Positions 2,191 through 39,786 of a DNA stretch of 64,000 bases are shown here, piece after piece (within the stretch, counting starts at the first letter, position 1; every line of letters begins with the position of its first letter). The translations under genes were made by a program, and so were the position numbers. Below the pieces are notes generated by a model. It saw nothing but the letters and a program-made list of their open reading frames with translations. It did not search any database and was not told the DNA's origin. Where the stretch lies: the NCBI GenBank assembly GCA_001464715.1, contig LNDT01000023.1, positions 12,385-76,384 of the forward strand, given 5' to 3'. The DNA is from Bdellovibrionales bacterium Ga0074137. GTDB lineage: Bacteria; Bdellovibrionota; Bdellovibrionia; Bdellovibrionales; JAMPXM01.

Positions 2191-3477
2191 ATGGGTGTTC
2201 TTTCATCGCTCTATACGGGCGTATCTGGTTTAACGGCACAAGGCGAAGCATTGGGGGTCATTGGTGATAACATCGCCAACGCGAACACCATTGGTTTCAA
2301 AGCCAGTCGTGCGGAGTTTCAAGACATTATCTCGAAGAACCTGAAAGGGATCTTGGGAGGTAACCAGATCGGTCGCGGTGTGAAGATCGGAGCCGTGAAT
2401 CCAATTCTCTCGCAAGGTAACGTTGATGCGACAGAGAAGTCGACGGATCTAGCAATTTCGGGTGATGGCTACTTTACGCTTCGAGGTTCCGACGGCGAAT
2501 CTTACACTCGCGACGGATCGTTTCACTTCGATCGTGAAGGTTACCTCGTTTCAAACGATGGTCAGCGTGTTCAAGGTTTTCAGAGCGATGACAAGGGTAA
2601 GATCATCAACAAAACCGGCGACATTAAGTTTCCTCGCGCTCTTATTCCAGCCAAAGGAACTTCTGAAATCGCACTTGATATGAACCTCGACTCGCGCGTC
2701 GATACCGGCAAGGTCTTCAATGCCGAAGATCCTTACACGACATCCAACTTCTCGACGGGCGTTGAGGTGTTCGACTCTCAAGGTAACAAGCATTTGATGA
2801 CGTTGTTCTTCAACAAGTCCGCTGATCGACAGTGGGATGTCCGCGGTATGGTCGACGGTAAAGAAGTCGTCGGTGGAACTCCGGGAAAAATGTCGGAAGT
2901 GATGACGGCCAAACTTGGGTTCACCGTTGACGGTAAACTTGATACCGAGCAGATCACAAAGCAGGCTTTCAACTTCGCCGGTGGTGCTCTTCAGAACCAG
3001 CAGATCAAAATCGATTTCGGTGACTCGATCACCACCGACAAAGGCAAAGGCCTTGATGGATCGAAGCAGTACGGAAAAGACTCAGACTTGATCTCTTGGC
3101 GGCAAGATGGAGCGGCGGCGGGAACAATCACGAACATGTCCTTCAACGACGAAGGTGTTCTGACGGCGCTGTATACGAACGGTCAAGCGGCGGATCTTGG
3201 TCAGATTGCAATGGCAAAGTTTGAAAACCCAGAAGCCCTCTTCAAAGTCGGTAACAACCGGTTGAAAGAGTCGCGCGATTCAGGAGCGGGTGCGATTGGA
3301 AAATCACGTCAAGCGGGTCGCGGATCATTGTTTGCGAAATCTCTTGAGCGATCGACCGTCGATTTAGCGACAGAGTTCGTGAATCTGATTCAGAACCAGC
3401 GAGGCTTCCAAGCCAACGCGAAAACCATCACAACAACCGATGAGCTTCTCAACGAAGTGATTCAGTTGAAGCGATAA
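2191..3477 (+). CDS. flgE: Flagellar hook protein FlgE
   Basis: AGGAGG RBS upstream. N-terminus MGVLSSLYTGVSGLTAQGEALGVIGDNIANANTIGFKASR and C-terminus VDLATEFVNLIQNQRGFQANAKTITTTDELLNEVIQLKR are the conserved rod/hook-family termini. Length is 428 aa. Confidence 0.93.
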   Translation: MGVLSSLYTGVSGLTAQGEALGVIGDNIANANTIGFKASRAEFQDIISKNLKGILGGNQIGRGVKIGAVNPILSQGNVDATEKSTDLAISGDGYFTLRGSDGESYTRDGSFHFDREGYLVSNDGQRVQGFQSDDKGKIINKTGDIKFPRALIPAKGTSEIALDMNLDSRVDTGKVFNAEDPYTTSNFSTGVEVFDSQGNKHLMTLFFNKSADRQWDVRGMVDGKEVVGGTPGKMSEVMTAKLGFTVDGKLDTEQITKQAFNFAGGALQNQQIKIDFGDSITTDKGKGLDGSKQYGKDSDLISWRQDGAAAGTITNMSFNDEGVLTALYTNGQAADLGQIAMAKFENPEALFKVGNNRLKESRDSGAGAIGKSRQAGRGSLFAKSLERSTVDLATEFVNLIQNQRGFQANAKTITTTDELLNEVIQLKR

Positions 3478-3541: not shown

Positions 3542-3665
3542 ATTAACGCGTAATATTCTTTAGTTCTGAGCCGGGGTGAGCCTCGGCCGCGGAGTCCAGC
3601 ATCTCGTCAATGCCGATGGCCAAACCTTCTCTTGGGTGCGACCGTTTGTGTGACTCCGCGCCCTC

Positions 3666-32037: not shown

Positions 32038-33576
32038 GTGAACCTAAAAACGCTTTTCACCACTGTGGATCCACGAAAAGACAGCGAAGTCACATCGCTG
32101 GTGTTCGATGCGAAGCTGGCCTCACCAGGTTCGGTTTTTGTTGCGATTCGTGGAAGCAAAGTGGACGGGCACAGCTTTATTAGCGAAGCTATTCAGCGCG
32201 GCGCAAAAGCCGTCGTCGTTGAAGATCCAAGTTTGGTTCCGCGCGAGTTCTCTGGATTTGTGCAGACGGTGGACTCCTCGCGCCGTGAACTGGCGCGTCT
32301 GTCGGCCGCGTGGCAGAGGTCTCCGTCAAAAGAACTTTTCACTGTCGGAGTTACCGGAACCAACGGAAAGACGACGACGACCCATATGATTGAGGCTGTG
32401 TTGAATCATGGCGGTCTTCCAACGGGCGTGATCGGAACCATCGATCACCACCTGGGTGCTAAAGTTTGGTCGACCGAGCGCACGACGCCGGATCCCGTCG
32501 TTTTTCAAACACGGCTTCGGCAGTTTGTTGAAAGTGGAGCGAAAGCTGTCGCCATTGAAGTTACGAGTCACGCTCTTGATCAATCACGTGTGGAAAGCGT
32601 TGAATTTGATGTCGGCCTTTTCACAAATCTCACGCGCGATCATCTGGACTATCACGGAACCATTGAAGCCTATTTTGAATCGAAGCTAAAATTTTTCACT
32701 GAACTTTTACACCGATCTGAAAAGCCTCGGCCACGGGCGATTCTTCACATCGATGATCCGTGGATTGAAAAAGCATTTCAGCGGATCGTACCGCTGAAAA
32801 AGCCCGATGTGTGGACGTTTGGTCAAAAGTGTCGAGATCGCACTTCGGGTGCGAATCACGTCGATTTTGAATATGAGATCCTCACCCAAGGGTTTGACGG
32901 CGCTGAGATCGTGCTGAAATCTCCCTTCGGGGAACGTCGTCTGCAGCTGGCTATGGCTGGCATCTACAATATTCAAAATGCGGTGGGCGCGATGGCTACG
33001 GGGCTTGCTGCGGGTTTTAATATCGATCTTGCATCAAAAGCGATTGAGTCGTTACGCGGCGTCAACGGCCGTCTTGAAAGTGTTGAAAACTCTTTGGGGC
33101 TCAATGTTTTTGTCGACTACGCACACACGGACGATGCGATCACGGCCATTCTGCGACTCCTGCAAGATCTTCGATCGGCGTCGAAAAGCCGCACTTCGGG
33201 ACGGCCTCAAATCATCACTGTTTTTGGCTGCGGTGGAGATCGCGACGCCGGGAAACGCCCGCTGATGATGAAGGCGGCCCTCGGGGGTTCTGATACAGTC
33301 ATTGTGACGTCGGACAATCCGCGCACGGAAGATCCTGAAAAAATCATCGACGATGCGATGACTGGAGCAAGCCCGAGTGATCACTCCCGCATTCACCGTG
33401 TTGTTGATCGACGACGAGCGCTGATGAAGGCTCTCGAGATTGCTACCCAGGGGGATGTGATTTTGATCGCAGGTAAAGGTCACGAAGTCACACAGACCAT
33501 CGGCACTCAGAAGTTCCCATTTTCCGATGTCTTGGTCGTGCGCGAATTGATGGAGGGATCCAATGTCAGTTCTTGA
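32038..33576 (+). CDS. murE: UDP-N-acetylmuramoyl-L-alanyl-D-glutamate--2,6-diaminopimelate ligase MurE
   Basis: GVTGTNGKTTTTHM P-loop, TSHALDQSRV, DYAHTDDA, and the DNPR motif (TSDNPRTEDP) typical of meso-DAP-adding MurE. In-frame GTG 32038 is preferred. ATG 31945 would overlap ftsI by 55 nt. Confidence 0.88.
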   Translation: MNLKTLFTTVDPRKDSEVTSLVFDAKLASPGSVFVAIRGSKVDGHSFISEAIQRGAKAVVVEDPSLVPREFSGFVQTVDSSRRELARLSAAWQRSPSKELFTVGVTGTNGKTTTTHMIEAVLNHGGLPTGVIGTIDHHLGAKVWSTERTTPDPVVFQTRLRQFVESGAKAVAIEVTSHALDQSRVESVEFDVGLFTNLTRDHLDYHGTIEAYFESKLKFFTELLHRSEKPRPRAILHIDDPWIEKAFQRIVPLKKPDVWTFGQKCRDRTSGANHVDFEYEILTQGFDGAEIVLKSPFGERRLQLAMAGIYNIQNAVGAMATGLAAGFNIDLASKAIESLRGVNGRLESVENSLGLNVFVDYAHTDDAITAILRLLQDLRSASKSRTSGRPQIITVFGCGGDRDAGKRPLMMKAALGGSDTVIVTSDNPRTEDPEKIIDDAMTGASPSDHSRIHRVVDRRRALMKALEIATQGDVILIAGKGHEVTQTIGTQKFPFSDVLVVRELMEGSNVSS

Positions 33577-35101
33577 ATCCAACTGGACCCTTTCTGCTCA
33601 AGAGTCCGCCGCGGCCGTCGATGGAAAGCTTGAATTGATTGGTGGCGGCGGTCTTACAGATTCCGTTTTTCACGGTGTCGGTACCGATACGCGCGTGGAT
33701 CTTTCTAGTTTATTGTTTTTTGCGCTGGTGGGCGACGCTCACGACGCCCACAGGTTTCTAAAGGACGCTATTTCTAAAAATGCAGCCGGCCTTGTCGTTC
33801 ACCGCGCGTTGACTCCTGAAGAAGTCGCCGCCTGTGAAGAACAGTCGCGAATTAGCGGAATGCCGGTCGCGATCATCTTGGTGAAAGACACTTTGCTTGC
33901 GCTTCAACAACTGTCTCGCCACTGGCGCATGAAATGCCCGGCGATGGTTTTAGGAATTACCGGGACGAACGGAAAAACTTCGACGAAAGAATTTGCGGCC
34001 GCCATTATCTCGAGCCGGTTTAAAGTTCAGTGGTCCAAGGGAAGCTTCAACAATCACTGGGGTGTTCCGATTTCTCTGCTCTCGATCAGGCCTAACGATG
34101 AAGTGGCTGTGATTGAAATGGGGATGAACCATATAGGAGAGCTTAAGACGCTTTCGCGGCTTGTGGAGGCGAACGCTGTTGTCTGCACAATGGTGGGACG
34201 CGGGCATTTGGAAGGCGTCGGTTCGGTGGAAGGTGTGGCTTTGGCCAAATCTGAAATTTATAGCGAAGCGCCTCGAACGGCGACGTTCATTTTTAATCTC
34301 GATAACGAGCACACGGTGTCGATGATGTCGCGATTTGCCGCTCCCAGCGAGGAAGGTCGCTCGGGCCGAAGAACGGTGACGTTTGGCGCCGCGGCCGGCG
34401 ATGTTTCTCTGCGAGTGACATCGATGGACGCGGATTCGATTCACATTGAAGGAGAAATCCGCGGCGTCGAAGGTCATGCTGTCATCCCGGTTTACGGAAA
34501 ACACAACGTAACGAACTTGATGGCGGCCGCAAGTCTTGCTCTTGTCGCCGGAATGTCTCCGCAAGAAATTTGGAAAGCCCTTCCGCTGTGCCGATCGGCG
34601 TGGGGACGAAATCAGTGGGTTCATCTTAAGTCCGGAGCGCGAGCCATGTTCGATGGCTACAATGCCAATCCGGAGAGTATGCAGGCTGCGCTTGAGAACG
34701 CAAAGTTACTGTCGGTCGATGGCCGGCGCGTGGCGGTGCTTGGCGAAATGCGCGAGCTTGGAGATTTTGCGGCGAGTGCGCATGAGGAACTTGGTCGACT
34801 GGCAAGAGACGTCGGTTTTGCTGAAGTTATTTTCTTAGGACCGTCGGCCGGGGACTTTGCTCGCGGGTTTGAGAGCGTTGATGGCGGAGCGAAAGTTGGT
34901 GCGCCTGGTGGTGCCAGCGGTGGTGCGCCCGTCAGGGCGAAATCGCTTCTTAAAACGATGGCGAGTTTTGATCCCGCGGTGGCCGCAGATTTAAAGACGC
35001 GCCTGGTGCCTGGAGACTTCGTCTTGATCAAAGGTTCCAGAGGCATGAGCCTTGAGACTTTTCTCAAAGGCCTCGATCCCACCGACTTTAAATCGAAGTG
35101 A
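33563..35101 (+). CDS. murF: UDP-N-acetylmuramoyl-tripeptide--D-alanyl-D-alanine ligase MurF
   Basis: GITGTNGKTSTKEF P-loop, EMGMNHIGE, DGYNANPESM and LIKGSRGMSLE motifs. Confidence 0.9.
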   Translation: MSVLESNWTLSAQESAAAVDGKLELIGGGGLTDSVFHGVGTDTRVDLSSLLFFALVGDAHDAHRFLKDAISKNAAGLVVHRALTPEEVAACEEQSRISGMPVAIILVKDTLLALQQLSRHWRMKCPAMVLGITGTNGKTSTKEFAAAIISSRFKVQWSKGSFNNHWGVPISLLSIRPNDEVAVIEMGMNHIGELKTLSRLVEANAVVCTMVGRGHLEGVGSVEGVALAKSEIYSEAPRTATFIFNLDNEHTVSMMSRFAAPSEEGRSGRRTVTFGAAAGDVSLRVTSMDADSIHIEGEIRGVEGHAVIPVYGKHNVTNLMAAASLALVAGMSPQEIWKALPLCRSAWGRNQWVHLKSGARAMFDGYNANPESMQAALENAKLLSVDGRRVAVLGEMRELGDFAASAHEELGRLARDVGFAEVIFLGPSAGDFARGFESVDGGAKVGAPGGASGGAPVRAKSLLKTMASFDPAVAADLKTRLVPGDFVLIKGSRGMSLETFLKGLDPTDFKSK

Positions 35102-35107
35102 TCGCCT

Positions 35108-36181
35108 TTAGTTTCCGAGTCTGGGCAGATAGCGAGCCATCACCGGCGCTCCGAGTTTTTGAACGGCTTGGAATACGTTGTGCTCACGGCAGAGAACACG
35201 GATGTTCTCTACGTCACTTTTTCCTCCCAGCGCCACGGGCGTTCGGTGATCAAATTCCAAACGATTTCGCTCCTCACAGCGACGACCTGCCGGAGAAACA
35301 TATTCGCACTGACTCTTGGCTTTCTGCCACGCGTCTCTTTTCACAGGCACAGAAAATGGCTGCGCTTCTTTTTCCAGCGACCGCGTTGGTCGGGCCGGTC
35401 GAATTCCTGAATTTTCCCGCGGCTCCTCCGCCGGTGGAGTCGCACAATTGTCGTCTGACGAAGTCAGAACCTTTTTTGCTGATGACTTCGCGGCGCCCCC
35501 GATGGAATGAGTCATCGCTTGGTCTTTCTTCCTTGGCTTGCGAAGTGGCGGGGCTTCACCACGTTCCCGTTTTTTCTTTGCGAGCTCTTTTCTCGCTAAA
35601 TTTAGAAAGAGATCTTTCGCAGTTTGATTTTTACTTTTGAGTCGACGGAGGTCTTCAATCACGGCCATCTCGTCGTCGGTCAGATCTAAGGTCAGCCGCG
35701 TAACGCCGGTCGAAAGCTGCCTTTCGAGAACTGGGCGAGCTGACAGTGTCAGCGGAAACTCGTGAACAAGTATTTTTTCGGCCGCCCGTTTCGAGAGTCC
35801 TGAAAGTTGTAACATCACCGACTTCTTTTGTTCCGTAGAAACTTTAATTTTCGTTTCTCGTTCGTGAGCCCTAATTACTACCCGTGCTTGCGCCACGGTC
35901 GATAGACTGAGCTTGCCCGACTCGATCTGGTTTTCAATTTCAACCACGTCTCGCATCGCGCGCATCGCTTCAATGCGGCGGCTGGCTGCGGCCTCCGAAT
36001 ATCCAAGTTTAGCTGTGCAATACGCAAAAAGACTGGAGTAACCAAGTTCGGCGTAGACCAAGCGGCGCTCGATTTCGCGGAGGAGTCTTAAGACTTCGAC
36101 CGTCGCTCGCCGCTCTTCTCCGACCAAGAATTGAATTTTGTGATTGAGCTCTTGATTCGTAAGCTGTGACAACGCTTCCAT
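35108..36181 (-). CDS. DUF222-like / HNH endonuclease-domain protein (antisense insertion inside the dcw cluster)
   Basis: The C-terminal CEYVSPAGRRCEERNRLEFDHRTPVALGGKSDVENIRVLCREHN is an HNH nuclease motif. The N-terminal LRLLREIERRLVYAELGYSSLFAYCTAKLGYSEAAASRRIEAMRAM resembles the DUF222 ('13E12-repeat'-type) domain. ATG 36181 follows AAGGA. The maximal ORF starts at GTG 36226. Confidence 0.75.
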   Translation of the reverse strand: MEALSQLTNQELNHKIQFLVGEERRATVEVLRLLREIERRLVYAELGYSSLFAYCTAKLGYSEAAASRRIEAMRAMRDVVEIENQIESGKLSLSTVAQARVVIRAHERETKIKVSTEQKKSVMLQLSGLSKRAAEKILVHEFPLTLSARPVLERQLSTGVTRLTLDLTDDEMAVIEDLRRLKSKNQTAKDLFLNLARKELAKKKRERGEAPPLRKPRKKDQAMTHSIGGAAKSSAKKVLTSSDDNCATPPAEEPRENSGIRPARPTRSLEKEAQPFSVPVKRDAWQKAKSQCEYVSPAGRRCEERNRLEFDHRTPVALGGKSDVENIRVLCREHNVFQAVQKLGAPVMARYLPRLGN

Positions 36182-36676
36182 CGTAGGTCCTTTTTTGTAG
36201 TGCTCGTTTTGTTCCAACGAGTTCACGATACCATCGGTTTTAAATCCGAAAACTTCCGTGCAGATAGCCTGTTGTTAGCGAGGTTGTAAAAACCGAAGAC
36301 GCCGGAACGTCGGCGGGAAATTGTGTTCAGTGGCGGCTGTCGTGCGAGGCGAGGCCTGGAGGCAAGCATCGAAACTGAATCGCCGCTCGCGAAACTGAGT
36401 TCGAAGGCAGTCAAATTTTTTCTTCATGCACCGATCTTTTTTTTCAAAACGAACCTTTGTGTCCGACGGCCGGACGACAATTCGCCGGGCGGAAGTAGGT
36501 CAGAAAGATCGCCAGAGAAAGTTGCCAGAGAAAGTGGCCGCGAGAGACGGCTGAAAAACTACGAGAGGAAAACGGCTGAATGAGAAAGGCTTGCCGTTGT
36601 CGTGACCACCAAAAAAATACTCGTGACGGTCGGCGCGATTTTTAGTCAGCGCGCGAACTGAAAAAAGCGGAGTCTC

Positions 36677-36826
36677 CTCCGCCGGCGGAGTCGGTGTTCG
36701 GAAGTCACCTTAAGCGTTTTGGCGCGAGTTGATCTGCGGGCTTCCTCCGCCAGCGGAGTCAGCGGTCGCTAAGCCATCCCCGGCGCGCACGCGCGAGCAG
36801 CGTCCAGATTTTCTCCGCCGGCGGAG
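36677..36826. repeat. Three copies of a 14-bp GC-rich palindrome CTCCGCC(G/A)GCGGAG at exact 68-bp spacing
   Basis: Copies at 36677-36690 (perfect), 36745-36758 (one substitution) and 36813-36826 (perfect). Flanking bases are loosely conserved (tYtY...CTCCGCCGGCGGAGtYRG). The sequence between copies is unrelated. Confidence 0.85.
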
Positions 36827-37027
36827 TTGGGCTCTGCGGATGCCCACGACCACCATTGAGCGGTTGATTTTCCTCGGCGTAGGAGCCGCTTTAGCGTCCC
36901 CTCGTTGGTTTTAATAATCATCAATGATTACAGTATCTTATCAAATAGTTCTTGCAGCTGTTTTGCTGTCCGTGCTAAGTGTCCTCATACATCTTTTCGA
37001 TCTCGTTTTGGGGGCAAGTCCGACACC

Positions 37028-38104
37028 ATGCTTTACCATTGGCTCCATTCTTTGTCTGAACAGCACAGTTTCCTCAACGTCTTCCGGTACATCACATTTC
37101 GAGCTTTCATCGCTTTCTTTACCGGATTTTTTCTCTGCCTCTGGATTGGTCCGTGGTTCATTCGTGGACTCGTAAATCGTCAGGTCGGGCAAGCGATCCG
37201 CGACGACGGCCCGCAAACTCACAAGAAAAAAGCAGGGACGCCGACCATGGGGGGCGTTCTCATATTGGTCGGACTTTTGGTGCCGGCACTTTTGTGGGTG
37301 AATGTTCTCCATCCGCTTGTCTGGGCGACGCTGATTGTGACGTTGGGATTTGGCTACATCGGTTACGTCGATGACTCTTTGAAAGTTCGAAAGAAGAACA
37401 CAAAGGGTTTGCCGGGGCGTCTGCGTTTGGCGGCGGAGTTTTTAATTTCAGGATCGGTGATCGCAGCGCTGATTCATTTCACGGATCTTTCGACCATCGT
37501 CAGTGTTCCGTTTTTCAAAACGGTCGCGTTTGATATCGGTTGGGGCTACGTCCTGTTCGGATCGCTTGTTGTGACGGGTTGCGCGAACGCTGTGAATTTG
37601 ACGGATGGTTTGGACGGTCTTGCGATTGTTCCAGTGATTATCGCCTCGGCCACTCTGGGTGTTTTTGCTTACGTCGCGGGAAACGCGGCGATTGCGTCGT
37701 ACTTGCAGATTCCCTTCATTTCAGGAGCAGGAGAACTGGTTCCGCTGGCAGGCGCCATGGTGGCCGCGGGGCTTGGATTTCTTTGGTTCAATACTTATCC
37801 GGCGCAAGTTTTCATGGGCGACATCGGTTCGCTTTCCATCGGTGGTTTCCTTGGAATTTTGGCTGTACTTACGAAAAACGAAATCGTCTTGATCGTTCTG
37901 GGCGGAGTTTTTGTCGTCGAAGCGCTTTCGGTGATCACTCAAGTCATTTCGTTTAAGCTGACAGGGCGGCGAATTTTTAAGATGGCCCCGATTCATCATC
38001 ACTTTGAACTCAAAGGTCTCACTGAGACCAAGATCATTGTTCGCTTCTGGATCATTTCGATTCTGCTGGCGATTTTGAGTCTAGCGACTCTCAAACTTCG
38101 GTAA
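37028..38104 (+). CDS. mraY: Phospho-N-acetylmuramoyl-pentapeptide transferase MraY
   Basis: [27 protein letters not shown] is a typical MraY N-terminus. Also [23 protein letters not shown] and [11 protein letters not shown]. The upstream in-frame extension to 36905 is judged non-coding. Confidence 0.9.
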
Positions 38105-38152
38105 TAACTTTTTAATCACGTTCGCTTTTGTAAAGCAGGAGTACTTAAACCC

Positions 38153-39592
38153 ATGGCTCAAACCCCAATGCCCCCATCCAGCGGAACGCCGCCACCATTC
38201 ACAGACTTCAAAGACCTCGAAGGTAAACGCGTTCTCATCGTCGGACTTGCTCGTAGCGGCGTGAGTCTTGCGCACTTCCTCACCGAGTGCGGCGCTCAAG
38301 TCACTATTTCGGATCACAAGTCGAAACCCGAACTAGCGACATCTCTCGAGCAAATCGAAGGTTTGAATGTTCAGTTGGATCTTGGCGGACACAGTCCGAA
38401 AGTTTTCTTGGCACAAGACTGCATTATTCTTTCGCCGGGAGTGCCGCCGAATTTAAAGATCTTCGAGTACGCTCGAACCAATGGCGTTGTCGTCACGGGC
38501 GAATTCGAATTTTCAACCTGGTTCATTAAGCAGCCGATCGTTGCTGTAACAGGAACCAATGGAAAATCGACCACGTGCAAACTCGTCGAGCTTTTCCTCA
38601 AAGAGTCGGGTATCGCAACGTGGCTTGGTGGAAACTTTGGCGATCCGTTGGTTGAGTATCTGCGCCTTGTTAAGGGCGGTGAGAAATTCGATTCGGTCGT
38701 CGCTGAAGTTTCAAGTTTCCAGCTTGAGCACTGCGATCGGTTCACGCCGCAAAATATCGTTTTCACGAACCTCGCCGAAAACCATCAAGATCGCTACAAG
38801 TCGATGGAAGAGTACGTGAATGCGAAACGTCGCATTTTCCAGAACGTGAACCAGGCGACGACATCGATTTTGAACGCCGATGACAATGCAGTCGTTGAGC
38901 TCGCCCGGGATCCAGCTGTTCAGCGTGGACGTATTTTCTACTTCTCTCGTAAACCAGCTCTCGAGCCACAGATCATGTCGATCGGTGGCGCGGTTTGTAT
39001 CAAAGACGAAGTTCGTGTTCGAACGGGACCCGAGATCGAGACGTACTCGATCAAGAACATGAAAATGCGCGGAAAACATTCGATCGACAATATTATGGCG
39101 GCGATTTTGGCGGCCCGCGAGCACGGCGCCAAGCGCGAGTCGATTCAAAAAGTGATCGATACCTACACAGGCATGCCGCATCGTCTTGAGTATGTTCGTC
39201 GTGTCGGCGGCGTTGAATTCTTTAACGATTCAAAAGCCACCAACGTTCACGCCGTTATGCGCGCGTTGGACGCGTTTGATGAAAACATCATCCTCATCAT
39301 GGGTGGAAAAGATACGAATCTTTCCTATGAGCCTTTGCGTGAGATGGTGAAGCGAAAAGTAAAAACGCTGATTCTGGTTGGCGAAGCAAAAGAGCGCATG
39401 AATCGCGATCTTGGAGATTGGTCGGAAACATTTTTGATCGGTACCTTCGAAGAGGCGGTTTTGATCGCTTATCAAAAGTCCCGTATCAGCGATTCGGTAC
39501 TGTTGTCGCCAGGGGCCTCGAGCTTTGACATGTTCGACAGCTACGAAGAGCGCGGGAACTACTTCAAAGAAATCGTTCGCAAGTTCAAATAG
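38153..39592 (+). CDS. murD: UDP-N-acetylmuramoylalanine--D-glutamate ligase MurD
   Basis: Motifs GLARSGVSLAHFL, VTGTNGKSTT, HRLEYV and NDSKATN. Has a Pro-rich N-terminal extension of ~20 aa. Confidence 0.9.
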   Translation: MAQTPMPPSSGTPPPFTDFKDLEGKRVLIVGLARSGVSLAHFLTECGAQVTISDHKSKPELATSLEQIEGLNVQLDLGGHSPKVFLAQDCIILSPGVPPNLKIFEYARTNGVVVTGEFEFSTWFIKQPIVAVTGTNGKSTTCKLVELFLKESGIATWLGGNFGDPLVEYLRLVKGGEKFDSVVAEVSSFQLEHCDRFTPQNIVFTNLAENHQDRYKSMEEYVNAKRRIFQNVNQATTSILNADDNAVVELARDPAVQRGRIFYFSRKPALEPQIMSIGGAVCIKDEVRVRTGPEIETYSIKNMKMRGKHSIDNIMAAILAAREHGAKRESIQKVIDTYTGMPHRLEYVRRVGGVEFFNDSKATNVHAVMRALDAFDENIILIMGGKDTNLSYEPLREMVKRKVKTLILVGEAKERMNRDLGDWSETFLIGTFEEAVLIAYQKSRISDSVLLSPGASSFDMFDSYEERGNYFKEIVRKFK

Positions 39593-39603
39593 CGCCGTCC
39601 ATT

Positions 39604-39713
39604 GATGTTGAGCTTCAGCTCACATGAGGTTGAGCTTCAGCTCACATGAGGTTGAGCTTCAGCTCACATGAGGTTGAGCTTCAGCTCACATGAGGTTGAG
39701 CTTCAGCTCACCT
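39604..39713. repeat. Tandem repeat, 22-bp unit x ~4.8 copies, each unit containing the inverted repeat tgagct-tc-agctca
   Basis: The unit ga(t/g)gttgagcttcagctcacat repeats at 39604, 39626, 39648, 39670 and 39692 (the last ends ...cacct). The period is not a multiple of 3. It lies in the murD-ftsW intergenic region. Confidence 0.95.
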
Positions 39714-39786
39714 TGTGCTGAGCTCGACATTCGTCGGGCTCAAAAAAGCGCGCGACGGCGGTCGTTGAAAAGCCTAAACTACTTCG

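What the first reader, a model, noticed from the sequence alone, without database searches (positions are those of the whole stretch)
35102..37027. The dcw cluster is interrupted between murF and mraY by an antisense DUF222/HNH endonuclease gene plus ~850 bp of non-coding DNA
murF and mraY are normally adjacent and co-transcribed, and elsewhere in this cluster the genes overlap by 4 nt. Here 1.9 kb intervenes.

The insert contains an opposite-strand ORF with a DUF222-like N-terminal domain and a C-terminal HNH motif (CEY...FDHRTPVALGG..NIRVLCREHN). Its stop at 35108 is only 6 nt from the murF stop at 35101, with no terminator between them. An 846-bp ORF-poor region (36182-37027) follows.

DUF222-HNH proteins are multi-copy, selfish-looking genes in other phyla (the '13E12 repeat' family). 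The consequences here are:
- Convergent transcription into murF.
- mraY-to-ftsZ needs either read-through across an antisense gene or a new promoter. A candidate is TTAATA-17 nt-TATCTT at 36911-36939.

I have not seen this insertion point described before.
Basis: partly seen in the sequence, partly recalled or inferred. Interest (0 to 1): 0.65.

Follow-up and report, generated by a model that had tools for sequence, protein, structure and literature searches.

The report
Selfish HNH nuclease element splitting dcw
A roughly 1.8-kb copy of a multi-copy, selfish-looking nuclease gene with its own upstream control DNA sits backwards between two cell-wall genes of a Bdellovibrio-like bacterium; it is tolerated because that junction is naturally loose in this lineage, so the case is real but fairly ordinary.

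Summary
murF ends at 35101, an antisense 357-aa ORF occupies 35108-36181, and 846 bp without conserved ORFs precede mraY at 37028.

The ORF is a divergent DUF222-like/HNH nuclease. Its family is very large and multi-copy in Bdellovibrionota genomes.

The "non-coding DNA" has two origins:
- About 650-700 bp is the element's own 5' region: a promoter-like motif, a conserved leader, a 13-nt tandem repeat and three GC-rich palindromes.
- The last ~120 bp is a native mraY upstream block. It is conserved in relatives that lack the insert.

The same insert sits at the same place in a sister species (MurF 88% identical), under purifying selection (dN/dS 0.19). Relatives at MurF 63-71% identity lack it; there the junction is empty (195 bp) or holds other cargo. 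It is therefore an old, vertically inherited insertion into a recurrent insertion spot, not a mis-assembly and not a fixed dcw component.

The most interesting by-product is a 14-22-nt palindrome that recurs at two fixed places in family members: upstream of the gene and inside the disordered linker codons. Its stem covaries between clades. Its function is unknown.

The parts
33563..35101 (+). murF (UDP-MurNAc-pentapeptide synthetase). The C-terminus is intact (…DPTDFKSK*).
   Evidence: Pfam Mur_ligase_M and Mur_ligase_C. The C-terminal residues are conserved with L007, L010, L011 and L119.
35108..36181 (-). DUF222-like/HNH nuclease ORF of 357 aa (P0001). It is the protein-coding core of the inserted element.
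   Evidence: Against the L007 orthologue dN/dS is 0.19; by domain it is 0.14 (N-domain) and 0.16 (HNH).
35132..35359 (-). HNH nuclease domain (aa ~275-350). All family-invariant Cys, His and Asn residues are present (C292, C302, H312, N326, C331, H334, N335).
   Evidence: Pfam HNH at aa 300-332. Invariant columns in A4. PDB sequence and fold hits cover only this domain: 4h9d and 6ghc. AF2 pLDDT is about 90-97.
35360..35563 (-). Hypervariable, predicted-disordered linker between the two domains.
   Evidence: pLDDT is below 50 for aa 217-271. Identity to L007 is 63%, with 81 gap columns. Indels appear throughout A4.
35426..35439 (.). Internal palindrome P2 (CTCCGCCGGTGGAG on the + strand). It encodes T-P-P-A-E and carries one synonymous change that breaks perfect symmetry; the L007 copy is perfect.
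35564..36181 (-). Helical N-terminal DUF222-like domain with helix-turn-helix-like segments (…LGYSEAAASRRIEAMR…).
   Evidence: AF2 pLDDT is 95-98 for aa 10-140. hhalign to a DUF222+HNH protein gives 99.9%. No solved structural neighbour was found.
36182..36233 (-). 5' UTR with a Shine-Dalgarno sequence (AAGGA) and an extended -10-like motif (TGgTATCGT, 36225-36233).
   Evidence: The motif AAAAC(C)nrTGnTAnnnT lies 35-60 nt upstream of the start codon in most family members, down to 27% aa identity. Its promoter function is inferred, not shown.
36234..36460 (-). Conserved leader of the element. It includes an invariant TTGAC (36410-36414).
   Evidence: Alignments A1 and A5 of 12 loci from unrelated contexts. 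nhmmer recovers only the seed clade. There is no support for RNA structure.
36502..36539 (.). 13-nt tandem repeat (2.8 copies), deleted in L007. This is a variable microsatellite-like zone of the element's 5' region.
   Evidence: TRF and the gaps in A2. Heptamer repeats sit at the equivalent place in other clades.
36677..36826 (.). P1 array: three copies of the same 14-nt palindrome at 36677-36690, 36745-36758 and 36813-36826, with an exact 68-nt period. It lies at or near the 5' edge of the element. The gene-proximal copy is part of a terminator-like hairpin plus T-run on the minus strand (36660-36690).
   Evidence: In the 64-kb window, 8 strand-matches were found against 0.03 expected by chance, representing 4 palindromic sites all at this locus. 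Orthologous copies exist in L007.
36831..36905 (.). Least conserved stretch (54% identity to L007). It probably contains the junction between element DNA and native DNA.
   Evidence: There is no homology to paralogues upstream of P1.
36906..37027 (+). Native mraY upstream block.
   Evidence: Identity to L007 is 86%. It is conserved in L010 (no insert), L011 (peptidase M3 insert) and L119 (92-nt spacer).
37028..38104 (+). mraY
   Evidence: Pfam Glycos_transf_4 and MraY_sig1. It is 98.6% aa identical to L007.

Best explanation
**What it is.** Window 35102 to about 36900 is one copy of a 1.5-1.8-kb repeat element that is multi-copy in Bdellovibrionota.

**Anatomy of the element, in gene order:**
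- a 5' non-coding region carrying one to three GC-rich palindromic hairpins (P1);
- a variable short tandem repeat;
- a ~230-nt conserved leader;
- its own extended -10-like promoter and ribosome-binding site;
- a single ORF.

**The ORF encodes:**
- a helical, HTH-like DUF222-type domain;
- a disordered linker whose codons carry a fourth copy of the palindrome (P2);
- an intact zinc-binding HNH nuclease.

**History.** The element landed between the murF stop codon and the mraY upstream region in a common ancestor of this organism and a sister species. It has been inherited vertically since, with the ORF under purifying selection.

**Why it is tolerated.** In this lineage the dcw cluster is already split at murF|mraY.
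- mraY keeps a conserved upstream block of about 120 nt, whatever lies in front of it.
- Other relatives carry other cargo at the same junction.

**How the element works (inferred, not shown).**
- It behaves as a selfish nuclease gene whose copies exchange sequence by recombination or gene conversion.
- It spreads by nuclease-initiated, recombination-dependent copying.
- The matched hairpins P1 and P2 are cis sites for the element's own protein or for control of its expression.
- Antisense placement inside a transcribed operon probably keeps the nuclease at a low level.
For: - Anatomy and coordinates.
- Homology to DUF222+HNH proteins over both domains.
- A profile of the alignment hits 5,120 clusters at 50% identity with E<=1e-30.
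- Single MAGs carry 4-7 copies. Eight related loci lie in the same metagenome in unrelated contexts.
- Paralogues share 350-700 nt upstream of the ORF, and their homology ends at the stop codon.
- Copies within one genome are mosaic: the leader, N-domain and HNH segments give incongruent identity matrices.
- The insert is collinear in L007, L008 and L009 (MurF 88.6% identical), with dN/dS 0.19.
- L010 has an empty junction. L011 and L119 carry other cargo.
- The mraY upstream block is conserved in all of these relatives.
- The MurF C-terminus is untouched.
- The palindrome is specific to the element. In the window, 8 strand-matches (4 palindromic sites) were found against 0.03 expected. Across about 550 kb of loci, nearly all hits fall at the two fixed positions.
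- Perfect stems of 8 bp or more occur at 1.04 per kb in the linker, 0.09 per kb in N-domain codons and 0.19 per kb in the flanks.

**From the literature.**
- REP13E12/DUF222-HNH repeats are gene-conversion hot spots that "lack defined biological function" (PMC13061034).
- Peredibacter genomes hold 10-13 HNH endonucleases, some of them strain-specific (PMC13147790).
Against: - No occupied/empty site pair at close evolutionary distance was available. Exact element ends, any target-site duplication and the mode of insertion are therefore not defined.
- No transposase or recombinase is encoded, and no terminal inverted repeats were seen, so mobility itself is inferred only from copy number and context.
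- The copy here has been stable since before a speciation event, and its internal palindrome carries a symmetry-breaking change. It may therefore be inactive or domesticated.
- Promoter assignments rest on motif conservation only.
Confidence: 0.78

Rival explanations
1. Hairpin-dependent transposon. P1 and P2 are single-strand DNA hairpins recognised and nicked by the DUF222-HNH protein, which moves the element by a single-strand route. The logic would resemble IS200/IS605 or REP-RAYT, but with an HNH nuclease in place of the HUH/Y1 enzyme.
For: - The stems covary between clades while staying perfectly complementary.
- Loop length varies from 0 to 5 nt, including odd and even values. This fits a hairpin better than a dimer site on duplex DNA.
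- P2 keeps its dyad while the encoded peptide changes: TPPAE, LPPAEV, TSAAEV, PPTSEV, LPAPAV, TAAAAV.
- P1 and P2 of the same element share centre and flank variants in direct orientation in L001, L061, the window and L007.
- In the window clade P1 lies at or near the 5' edge of paralogue homology.
Against: - P2 lies about 330 nt inside the 3' end, and paralogue homology continues through the HNH domain to the stop codon.
- In another clade homology extends about 200 nt upstream of P1.
- Many members lack a detectable P1 or P2.
- No HNH-driven single-strand transposition is known (my own knowledge).
Confidence: 0.15
2. Domesticated lineage-specific component. The gene and its hairpin array have been co-opted, for example as an insulator or terminator module that separates a murF-ending transcript from an mraY-starting one, or as a host nuclease.
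For: - The insert is shared by two species, with dN/dS 0.14-0.19 in both domains.
- A terminator-like hairpin is present in the P1 array.
- P1 is often followed by a T-run in other members.
Against: - The insert is absent from the next relatives, which manage the same junction with 92-217 nt in front of mraY.
- Close paralogues sit in unrelated contexts.
- The non-coding parts of the insert evolve near the synonymous rate, at 54-75% identity.
- The hairpins are not followed by T-runs in the dcw (+) direction.
Confidence: 0.1
3. RNA-guided nuclease. The conserved upstream region encodes a structured guide or scaffold RNA for the HNH protein, as the omega RNA (HEARO) does for IscB.
For: - A conserved non-coding region of about 300-700 nt always travels with the ORF, on its 5' side.
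- One clade has three conserved hairpins enclosed by a 14-nt inverted repeat.
Against: - No Rfam match was found, even at E<=10 for the window region (35000-37100) and E<=1 for six related loci.
- Folding energies are ordinary: z-scores of +0.76, +0.64, -1.06 and -1.22.
- RNAalifold finds nothing or only -1.95 kcal/mol.
- Only 3 of 58 predicted pairs show compensatory change.
- There is no RuvC domain. The IscB model scores 15 bits against a cut-off of 175, and only over the HNH part.
- The best-conserved upstream motif looks like a promoter, not an RNA element.
Confidence: 0.05
4. Defence nuclease. The gene is a McrA-like or other restriction-type HNH enzyme carried on a small island, not a self-propagating element.
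For: - Some homologues carry the source name "5-methylcytosine-specific restriction endonuclease McrA".
- The best fold hit is EcoKMcrA, 6ghc.
Against: - The similarity is confined to the HNH domain.
- PADLOC gives only weak restriction-enzyme hits over the HNH motif, E 0.009-0.06.
- Four to seven diverged copies per genome, each with a conserved private upstream region, is not how defence genes are usually organised.
Confidence: 0.07
5. Mis-assembly joining unrelated contigs at a repeat.
For: Family members do break assemblies elsewhere: copies lie at contig ends in L041, L042, L077 and L078.
Against: - The same junctions on both sides are seen in the window's own 86.6-kb contig and in three independent assemblies of the sister species.
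- The flanks are collinear across both boundaries.
Confidence: 0.01

Closest known systems
REP13E12 / DUF222-HNH repeat genes of Mycobacterium and other Actinomycetota
   Same: - Single ORF with a DUF222-type N-domain plus a C-terminal HNH.
- Several diverged copies per genome.
- The repeat unit is larger than the ORF.
- Copies exchange sequence: mosaicism here and gene conversion in M. tuberculosis (PMC13061034).
- Function undefined.
   Different: - A different phylum (Bdellovibrionota).
- The N-domain is too diverged for Pfam DUF222 to score the window protein.
- The matched upstream and in-linker palindromes are not described for REP13E12 in the papers I could search.
- The one high-GC DUF222+HNH locus I examined (L118) gave no convincing pair.
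Free-standing HNH homing endonuclease genes (phage mob/seg-type, I-HmuI-like)
   Same: A small selfish gene encoding an HNH nuclease, found between conserved genes of an operon. The expected spread is by nuclease-triggered repair.
   Different: - No full-length relatives were found in 2.9 million viral contigs.
- It is dispersed into unrelated chromosomal contexts rather than one cognate site.
- It carries a long private 5' region.
- No clear co-conversion tract is visible.
IS200/IS605 elements and REP-RAYT systems
   Same: Short GC-rich hairpins of element-specific sequence are associated with a single nuclease gene. The hairpin sequence co-varies with the element lineage.
   Different: - There is no HUH/Y1 transposase.
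- One hairpin is inside the ORF, about 330 nt from the 3' end.
- The palindrome is not dispersed through the genome. It occurs nowhere else in the 64-kb window.
IscB/IsrB OMEGA systems (HEARO RNA)
   Same: An HNH-containing protein whose gene is always preceded by a conserved non-coding region.
   Different: There is no RuvC domain, no detectable structured RNA and no Rfam hit.
Canonical dcw (division and cell wall) cluster
   Same: The gene order mraZ-rsmH-ftsL-ftsI-murE-murF-mraY-murD-ftsW-murG-murC-murB-ftsQ-ftsA is kept.
   Different: - This lineage tolerates insertions at murF|mraY: the HNH element, a peptidase M3 gene, or an NHL gene plus an antisense acetyltransferase.
- L119 also carries insertions at ftsI|murE.

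Membership tests
DUF222-HNH (REP13E12-type) repeat proteins | C-terminal HNH (beta-beta-alpha-metal) nuclease motif with zinc ligands | tested here: met
   - PF01844 scores E 3e-5, above its cut-off.
- Invariant C292, C302, H312, N326 and C331 are all present in the window protein.
- PDB hits are 4h9d and 6ghc.
DUF222-HNH (REP13E12-type) repeat proteins | N-terminal DUF222 (PF02720) domain | tested here: met
   - The window protein alone has no Pfam hit at E<=0.01.
- Thirteen of 28 aligned homologues hit PF02720, best E 3e-5.
- hhalign of the family profile against a DUF222+HNH protein gives probability 99.9%, E 1.4e-36, covering the N-domain.
- Membership is therefore at superfamily level.
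DUF222-HNH (REP13E12-type) repeat proteins | Several dispersed copies per genome, with a repeat unit that extends beyond the ORF | tested here: met
   - Four MAGs carry 4-7 copies each.
- Paralogues share 350-700 nt upstream.
- The copy number in the window's own genome is not established. Eight related loci lie in the same metagenome, with similar GC of 0.51-0.53.
Homing endonuclease gene | The nuclease cuts the cognate insert-free allele, and the gene is copied in by repair | not testable with these tools
   This needs the purified enzyme and an empty-site substrate. The nearest empty site available (L010) is too diverged.
Homing endonuclease gene | Residence in a phage, intron or intein, or one cognate site across genomes | tested here: not met
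   No full-length relatives were found in viral contigs. The copies lie in unrelated chromosomal contexts.
Homing endonuclease gene | A co-conversion tract of reduced divergence flanking the insert | tested here: inconclusive
   - dS against L007 is 0.58-0.68 for the HNH gene, mraY and murD, but 1.0-2.4 for mraZ, ftsL, ftsI, murE, murF and ftsW.
- mraY and murD are also slow against the outgroup L010, so intrinsic rate variation can explain the pattern.
IS200/IS605 or REP-RAYT | HUH/Y1 transposase gene | tested here: not met
   The only ORF with homologues is the DUF222-HNH protein.
IS200/IS605 or REP-RAYT | Subterminal hairpins at both element ends | tested here: not met
   P1 is near the 5' edge in the window clade. 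P2 is about 330 nt inside the 3' end, and homology runs on to the stop codon.
IscB / OMEGA RNA-guided nucleases | Split RuvC domain flanking the HNH | tested here: not met
   NCBIfam guided_IscB scores 15 bits against a cut-off of 175, over the HNH part only. The AF2 model shows a helical N-domain.
IscB / OMEGA RNA-guided nucleases | A structured omega RNA encoded next to the gene | tested here: not met
   - No Rfam match.
- No consensus structure.
- Folding z-scores lie between -1.2 and +0.8.
McrA-like type IV restriction enzyme | N-terminal modified-DNA reader domain | tested here: not met
   Sequence and fold matches to 6ghc and 5zmm cover only the HNH domain.
dcw cluster | Conserved gene order with murF directly followed by mraY | tested here: not met
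   - The overall order is conserved.
- murF and mraY are separated by 1,926 nt here.
- The separation is 195 nt in L010.
- L011 and L119 hold extra genes at the junction.

The most novel reading that the evidence does not exclude
The matched GC-rich hairpins define a previously undescribed kind of mobile or self-regulating element. One or more sit at the 5' edge of the element, and one is written into the codons of the disordered linker. They covary between clades and are kept identical within an element. On this reading the DUF222 domain reads its own hairpin (as DNA or RNA) and the HNH domain nicks next to it. This would drive copying, gene conversion or module shuffling in the very large and so far function-less DUF222-HNH family, including REP13E12 of M. 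tuberculosis.
Probability: 0.2. Interest if true: 0.7.

Novelty: new member of a known kind. Interest (0 to 1): 0.35.

Why it matters
- **For the dcw cluster.** The textbook-tight murF-mraY link is not obligatory in Bdellovibrionota. mraY carries its own conserved upstream block, and the junction is a recurrent landing site. This bears on operon prediction and on how division and cell-wall genes are regulated in predatory bacteria.
- **For mobile DNA.** DUF222-HNH genes form a very large family: 5,120 clusters at 50% identity with E<=1e-30. No mechanism is known for them. The anatomy worked out here gives concrete cis-elements to test in vitro: a private 5' region, a promoter motif, and paired covarying hairpins with one inside the ORF.
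- **In itself.** The insertion in this window is an old, quiet passenger.

Tried and rejected
1. **Structured RNA in the 846-bp region.**
   - Rfam gave nothing at gathering thresholds on the whole window, and only chance-level hits (E 2.9-9.8) on 35000-37100.
   - Rfam on six related loci gave nothing relevant.
   - RNAalifold found 0 pairs in 12 leaders and -1.95 kcal/mol in 7 leaders.
   - Folding z-scores were ordinary.
2. **Mini CRISPR-like or TIGR-like array for the 68-nt periodic palindromes.**
   - There are only 2-3 units.
   - The spacers match nothing in the window.
   - There are no cas or tas genes, and the count differs from the sister species.
3. **Recombination (co-conversion) tract around the insert.** The drop in dS over the HNH gene, mraY and murD is largely explained by the intrinsically slow evolution of mraY and murD.
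4. **Phage origin.** Viral contigs hold only HNH-domain matches. PHROG hits are generic HNH.
5. **Defence system.** PADLOC gives only weak restriction-enzyme hits on the HNH motif.
6. **Fold of the N-domain.** Foldseek against the PDB finds nothing beyond the HNH domain.
7. **Conserved small ORFs in the spacer.** These are excluded by non-triplet indels relative to L007.
8. **The same palindrome pair in a canonical high-GC DUF222+HNH locus (L118).** One linker palindrome was seen, but in 64% GC DNA it cannot be told from chance.
9. **RNA versus DNA hairpin by G·U bias.** By hand, I count four G·U-compatible mismatches on the sense strand against two on the antisense strand. That is too few to decide.
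10. **Terminal inverted repeats or target duplications.** None were seen at paralogue boundaries.
Full report
**1. The observation**

  - murF runs 33563-35101 (+).
  - An antisense ORF has its stop at 35108, 6 nt beyond the murF stop.
  - mraY runs 37028-38104 (+).
  - The 846 bp between the ORF start (36181) and mraY have no conserved ORF.
- Pfam identifies MurE, MurF, MraY and MurD as expected. In the antisense protein it finds only an HNH domain (E 3e-5).
- No terminator-like site lies between the convergent stops.
- The window is contig AADWTP_10000500 of an activated-carbon metagenome (JGI 3300002461). It carries a complete dcw cluster in canonical order.
- The nearest named relatives of its MurF and HNH proteins are Bdellovibrionota MAGs.

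**2. What the antisense gene is**

- The protein has orthologue-like relatives at 64-70% identity, a second tier at 46-54%, and then many at about 30%.
- Family-level analysis shows three parts:
  - a helical N-domain (aa 1-206, pLDDT up to 98);
  - a disordered, indel-rich linker (aa 217-271, pLDDT below 50);
  - an HNH domain with every invariant Cys, His and Asn residue present.
- The DUF222 link holds at family level.
  - The window protein alone has no DUF222 hit.
  - Thirteen of 28 homologues hit PF02720.
  - The family profile aligns to a DUF222+HNH protein over both domains (hhalign 99.9%, E 1.4e-36).
- The family is very large. A profile of the alignment finds 5,120 clusters at 50% identity with E<=1e-30.
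- Solved structures match only the HNH part: the Gme HNH nickase 4h9d and EcoKMcrA 6ghc.
- No full-length relative occurs in viral contigs.
- Defence and IscB models give only sub-threshold HNH matches.

**3. It is a repeat element, and most of the "spacer" belongs to it**

- Three relatives from the same metagenome sit in unrelated contexts, none of them dcw. The NCBI assembly of that metagenome holds eight related loci.
- In species-representative genomes the family is essentially confined to Bdellovibrionota. It is multi-copy there: 6, 4, 5 and 7 copies in four MAGs, and several copies lie at contig ends.
- Paralogues within one genome share the ORF plus 350-700 nt upstream. Their homology stops at the stop codon.
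- Within one genome the leader, N-domain and HNH segments give incongruent identity matrices. For example, L030 and L036 are 97% identical in the ORF but 62% in the leader. The copies therefore recombine.
  - This matches reports that REP13E12/DUF222-HNH repeats are gene-conversion hot spots of unknown function (PMC13061034).
  - It also matches reports that Peredibacter genomes have 10-13 HNH endonucleases, some strain-specific (PMC13147790).
- In the window clade about 330 nt upstream of the start codon are alignable across 12 loci, with an invariant TTGAC.
- A motif AAAAC(C)nrTGnTAnnnT lies 35-60 nt upstream of the start codon. It is followed by a Shine-Dalgarno sequence and is recognisable down to 27% protein identity. 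I read it as an extended -10 promoter (window 36225-36233, minus strand). This is an inference.
- I found no evidence that the leader is a structured RNA.

**4. The palindromes**

- The 14-mer CTCCGCCGGCGGAG occurs four times in the 64-kb window, all in this locus. The search reported 8 strand-matches against 0.03 expected by chance.
  - Three copies lie at 36677, 36745 and 36813, with an exact 68-nt period.
  - One copy lies at 35426, inside the ORF, where it encodes T-P-P-A-E in the disordered linker.
- The same two locations recur across the family: inside the linker codons (+546 to +805 from the start codon) and upstream of the gene (-74 to -645).
- The sequence changes between clades but keeps its dyad. 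Variants include ACTTCCGCCGGCGGAAGT, ACCTCCGCAGCGGAGGT, CACTGCCGGCGCCGGCAGTG, ACCTCCGACGTCGGAGGT and AAACCCCGCCGGCGGGGTTT.
  - Loops range from 0 to 5 nt.
  - The encoded peptide changes with the stem (TPPAE, LPPAEV, TSAAEV, PPTSEV, LPAPAV, TAAAAV), so selection acts on the nucleotides.
- Perfect stems of 8 bp or more are 11-fold denser in the linker than in N-domain codons, and 5-fold denser than in the flanks.
- Within an element the upstream and internal copies share centre and flank variants in direct orientation (L001, L061, L062, the window, L007).
- Upstream copies are often followed by T-runs, so they look like terminators.
- Varying loop length argues for a hairpin rather than a dimer site on duplex DNA. 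RNA and single-strand DNA cannot be told apart here.
- The window's internal copy carries one synonymous change that breaks the symmetry. The sister species' copy is perfect.
- Not all members have detectable copies.

**5. History of this insertion**

- The closest MurF (88.6% identity; three independent Logan assemblies) has the same arrangement: murF, antisense HNH gene, about 800 bp, then mraY. It is collinear with the window across the whole insert.
- The ORF is under purifying selection. Overall dN/dS is 0.19; it is 0.14 for the N-domain and 0.16 for the HNH domain.
- The element's non-coding parts are 54-75% identical. The 122 nt before mraY are 86% identical.
- More distant relatives differ at this junction.
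  - L010 (MurF 71%) has murF, 195 bp, then mraY.
  - L011 (68%) has a peptidase M3 gene there.
  - L119 (63%) has an NHL-repeat gene and an antisense acetyltransferase there. It also has two extra genes between ftsI and murE.
- In all of these relatives, the block TTCTTGC…CGTGCTA(A/G)… plus the GGGGGCAAGTC..ACACC-ATG leader precedes mraY. This includes L119's 92-nt spacer.
- The MurF C-terminus is unchanged.
- A dip in dS over the HNH gene, mraY and murD suggested a co-conversion tract. mraY and murD are also slow against the outgroup, so I do not claim one.

**6. Interpretation**

A selfish, multi-copy DUF222-type HNH gene has been inserted antisense into the dcw cluster.
- What changes is the framing.
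  - The insert is a complete element of about 1.8 kb that includes most of the "non-coding DNA".
  - It is old and vertically inherited in a two-species clade.
  - It sits in a junction that is naturally open and independently expressed in this lineage. The predicted regulatory crisis for mraY-ftsZ therefore probably does not exist.
- How such elements move is unknown, both here and in the literature. My working model is nuclease-initiated, recombination-dependent copying and gene conversion, with the hairpins as cis sites. This is an inference.
- The hairpin-transposon, domestication, RNA-guide and defence readings are listed as rivals, each with its test.

Noticed in passing
window 35426-35439, 36677-36690, 36745-36758, 36813-36826; L001, L007, L024-L037, L043, L061, L062, L069, L072, L085-L103 and others: An element-specific GC-rich palindrome of 14-22 nt recurs at two fixed places in DUF222-HNH elements: upstream of the gene and inside the linker codons. 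Its stem covaries between clades. The copies within one element share the same variants. No description of this was found in the searchable literature.
   Followed up: yes
window 36502-36539; L024-L037 about 300-420 nt upstream of the ORF; L044 about 3590-3640; L085 about 2000-2050: Short tandem repeats of variable copy number sit in the 5' region of elements from different clades. Here it is a 13-mer in 2.8 copies, deleted in L007. Elsewhere they are (TTTGCTC)n, (CCATGCT)n and (GGGGATT)n. They may act as slippage-prone expression switches.
   Followed up: partly
L011 6543-8108; L119 5653-7646 and 884-2347: Other relatives carry different cargo at the same murF|mraY junction: a peptidase M3 gene, or an NHL-repeat gene plus an antisense acetyltransferase. 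L119 also has a DUF4423 gene (antisense) and a 152-aa ORF between ftsI and murE. The dcw cluster of this lineage is therefore repeatedly interrupted.
   Followed up: partly
window 36949-36979 and 37010-37027; L007, L010, L011, L119 upstream of mraY: A conserved block TTCTTGC-N15-CGTGCTA(A/G) plus a GGGGGCAAGTC..ACACC leader precedes mraY in every relative examined. It does not fit a textbook sigma-70 -10 element. It could be a lineage-specific promoter or a regulatory site.
   Followed up: partly
window 37028-39592 versus L007 9358-11923: MraY and MurD are 98.6% and 99.6% identical between the two species, while neighbouring dcw proteins are 78-94% identical. For mraY and murD, dS is about half that of murE and murF. 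Against an outgroup both genes are also unusually slow, so this is probably strong constraint rather than recent transfer.
   Followed up: yes
L072 about 3144-3230 (ORF +656 to +741): The internal palindrome is duplicated 66 nt apart inside the ORF, duplicating a 22-aa linker unit. This spacing is close to the 68-nt and 73-nt spacing of the upstream copies in the window and in L007. It suggests that a palindrome-containing unit of about 66-73 nt duplicates readily.
   Followed up: no
L085, L088, L089, L091, L103, about 300-700 nt upstream of the ORF: In one soil clade a 14-nt inverted repeat (TCCGTCCATGAGAA / TTCTCATGGATGGA) encloses a block of about 360 nt holding three conserved hairpins, one of which is P1. 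The sequences are too similar to each other to test covariation.
   Followed up: partly
L041, L042, L077, L078 (contig ends): Several family members lie exactly at contig ends, so these repeats break short-read assemblies. Copy numbers in MAGs are therefore underestimates.
   Followed up: no
window 39593-39786: A second sizeable intergenic gap (194 nt) lies between murD and ftsW. In L010 the corresponding gap holds an 85-aa ORF. This may be another loose joint of the cluster.
   Followed up: no
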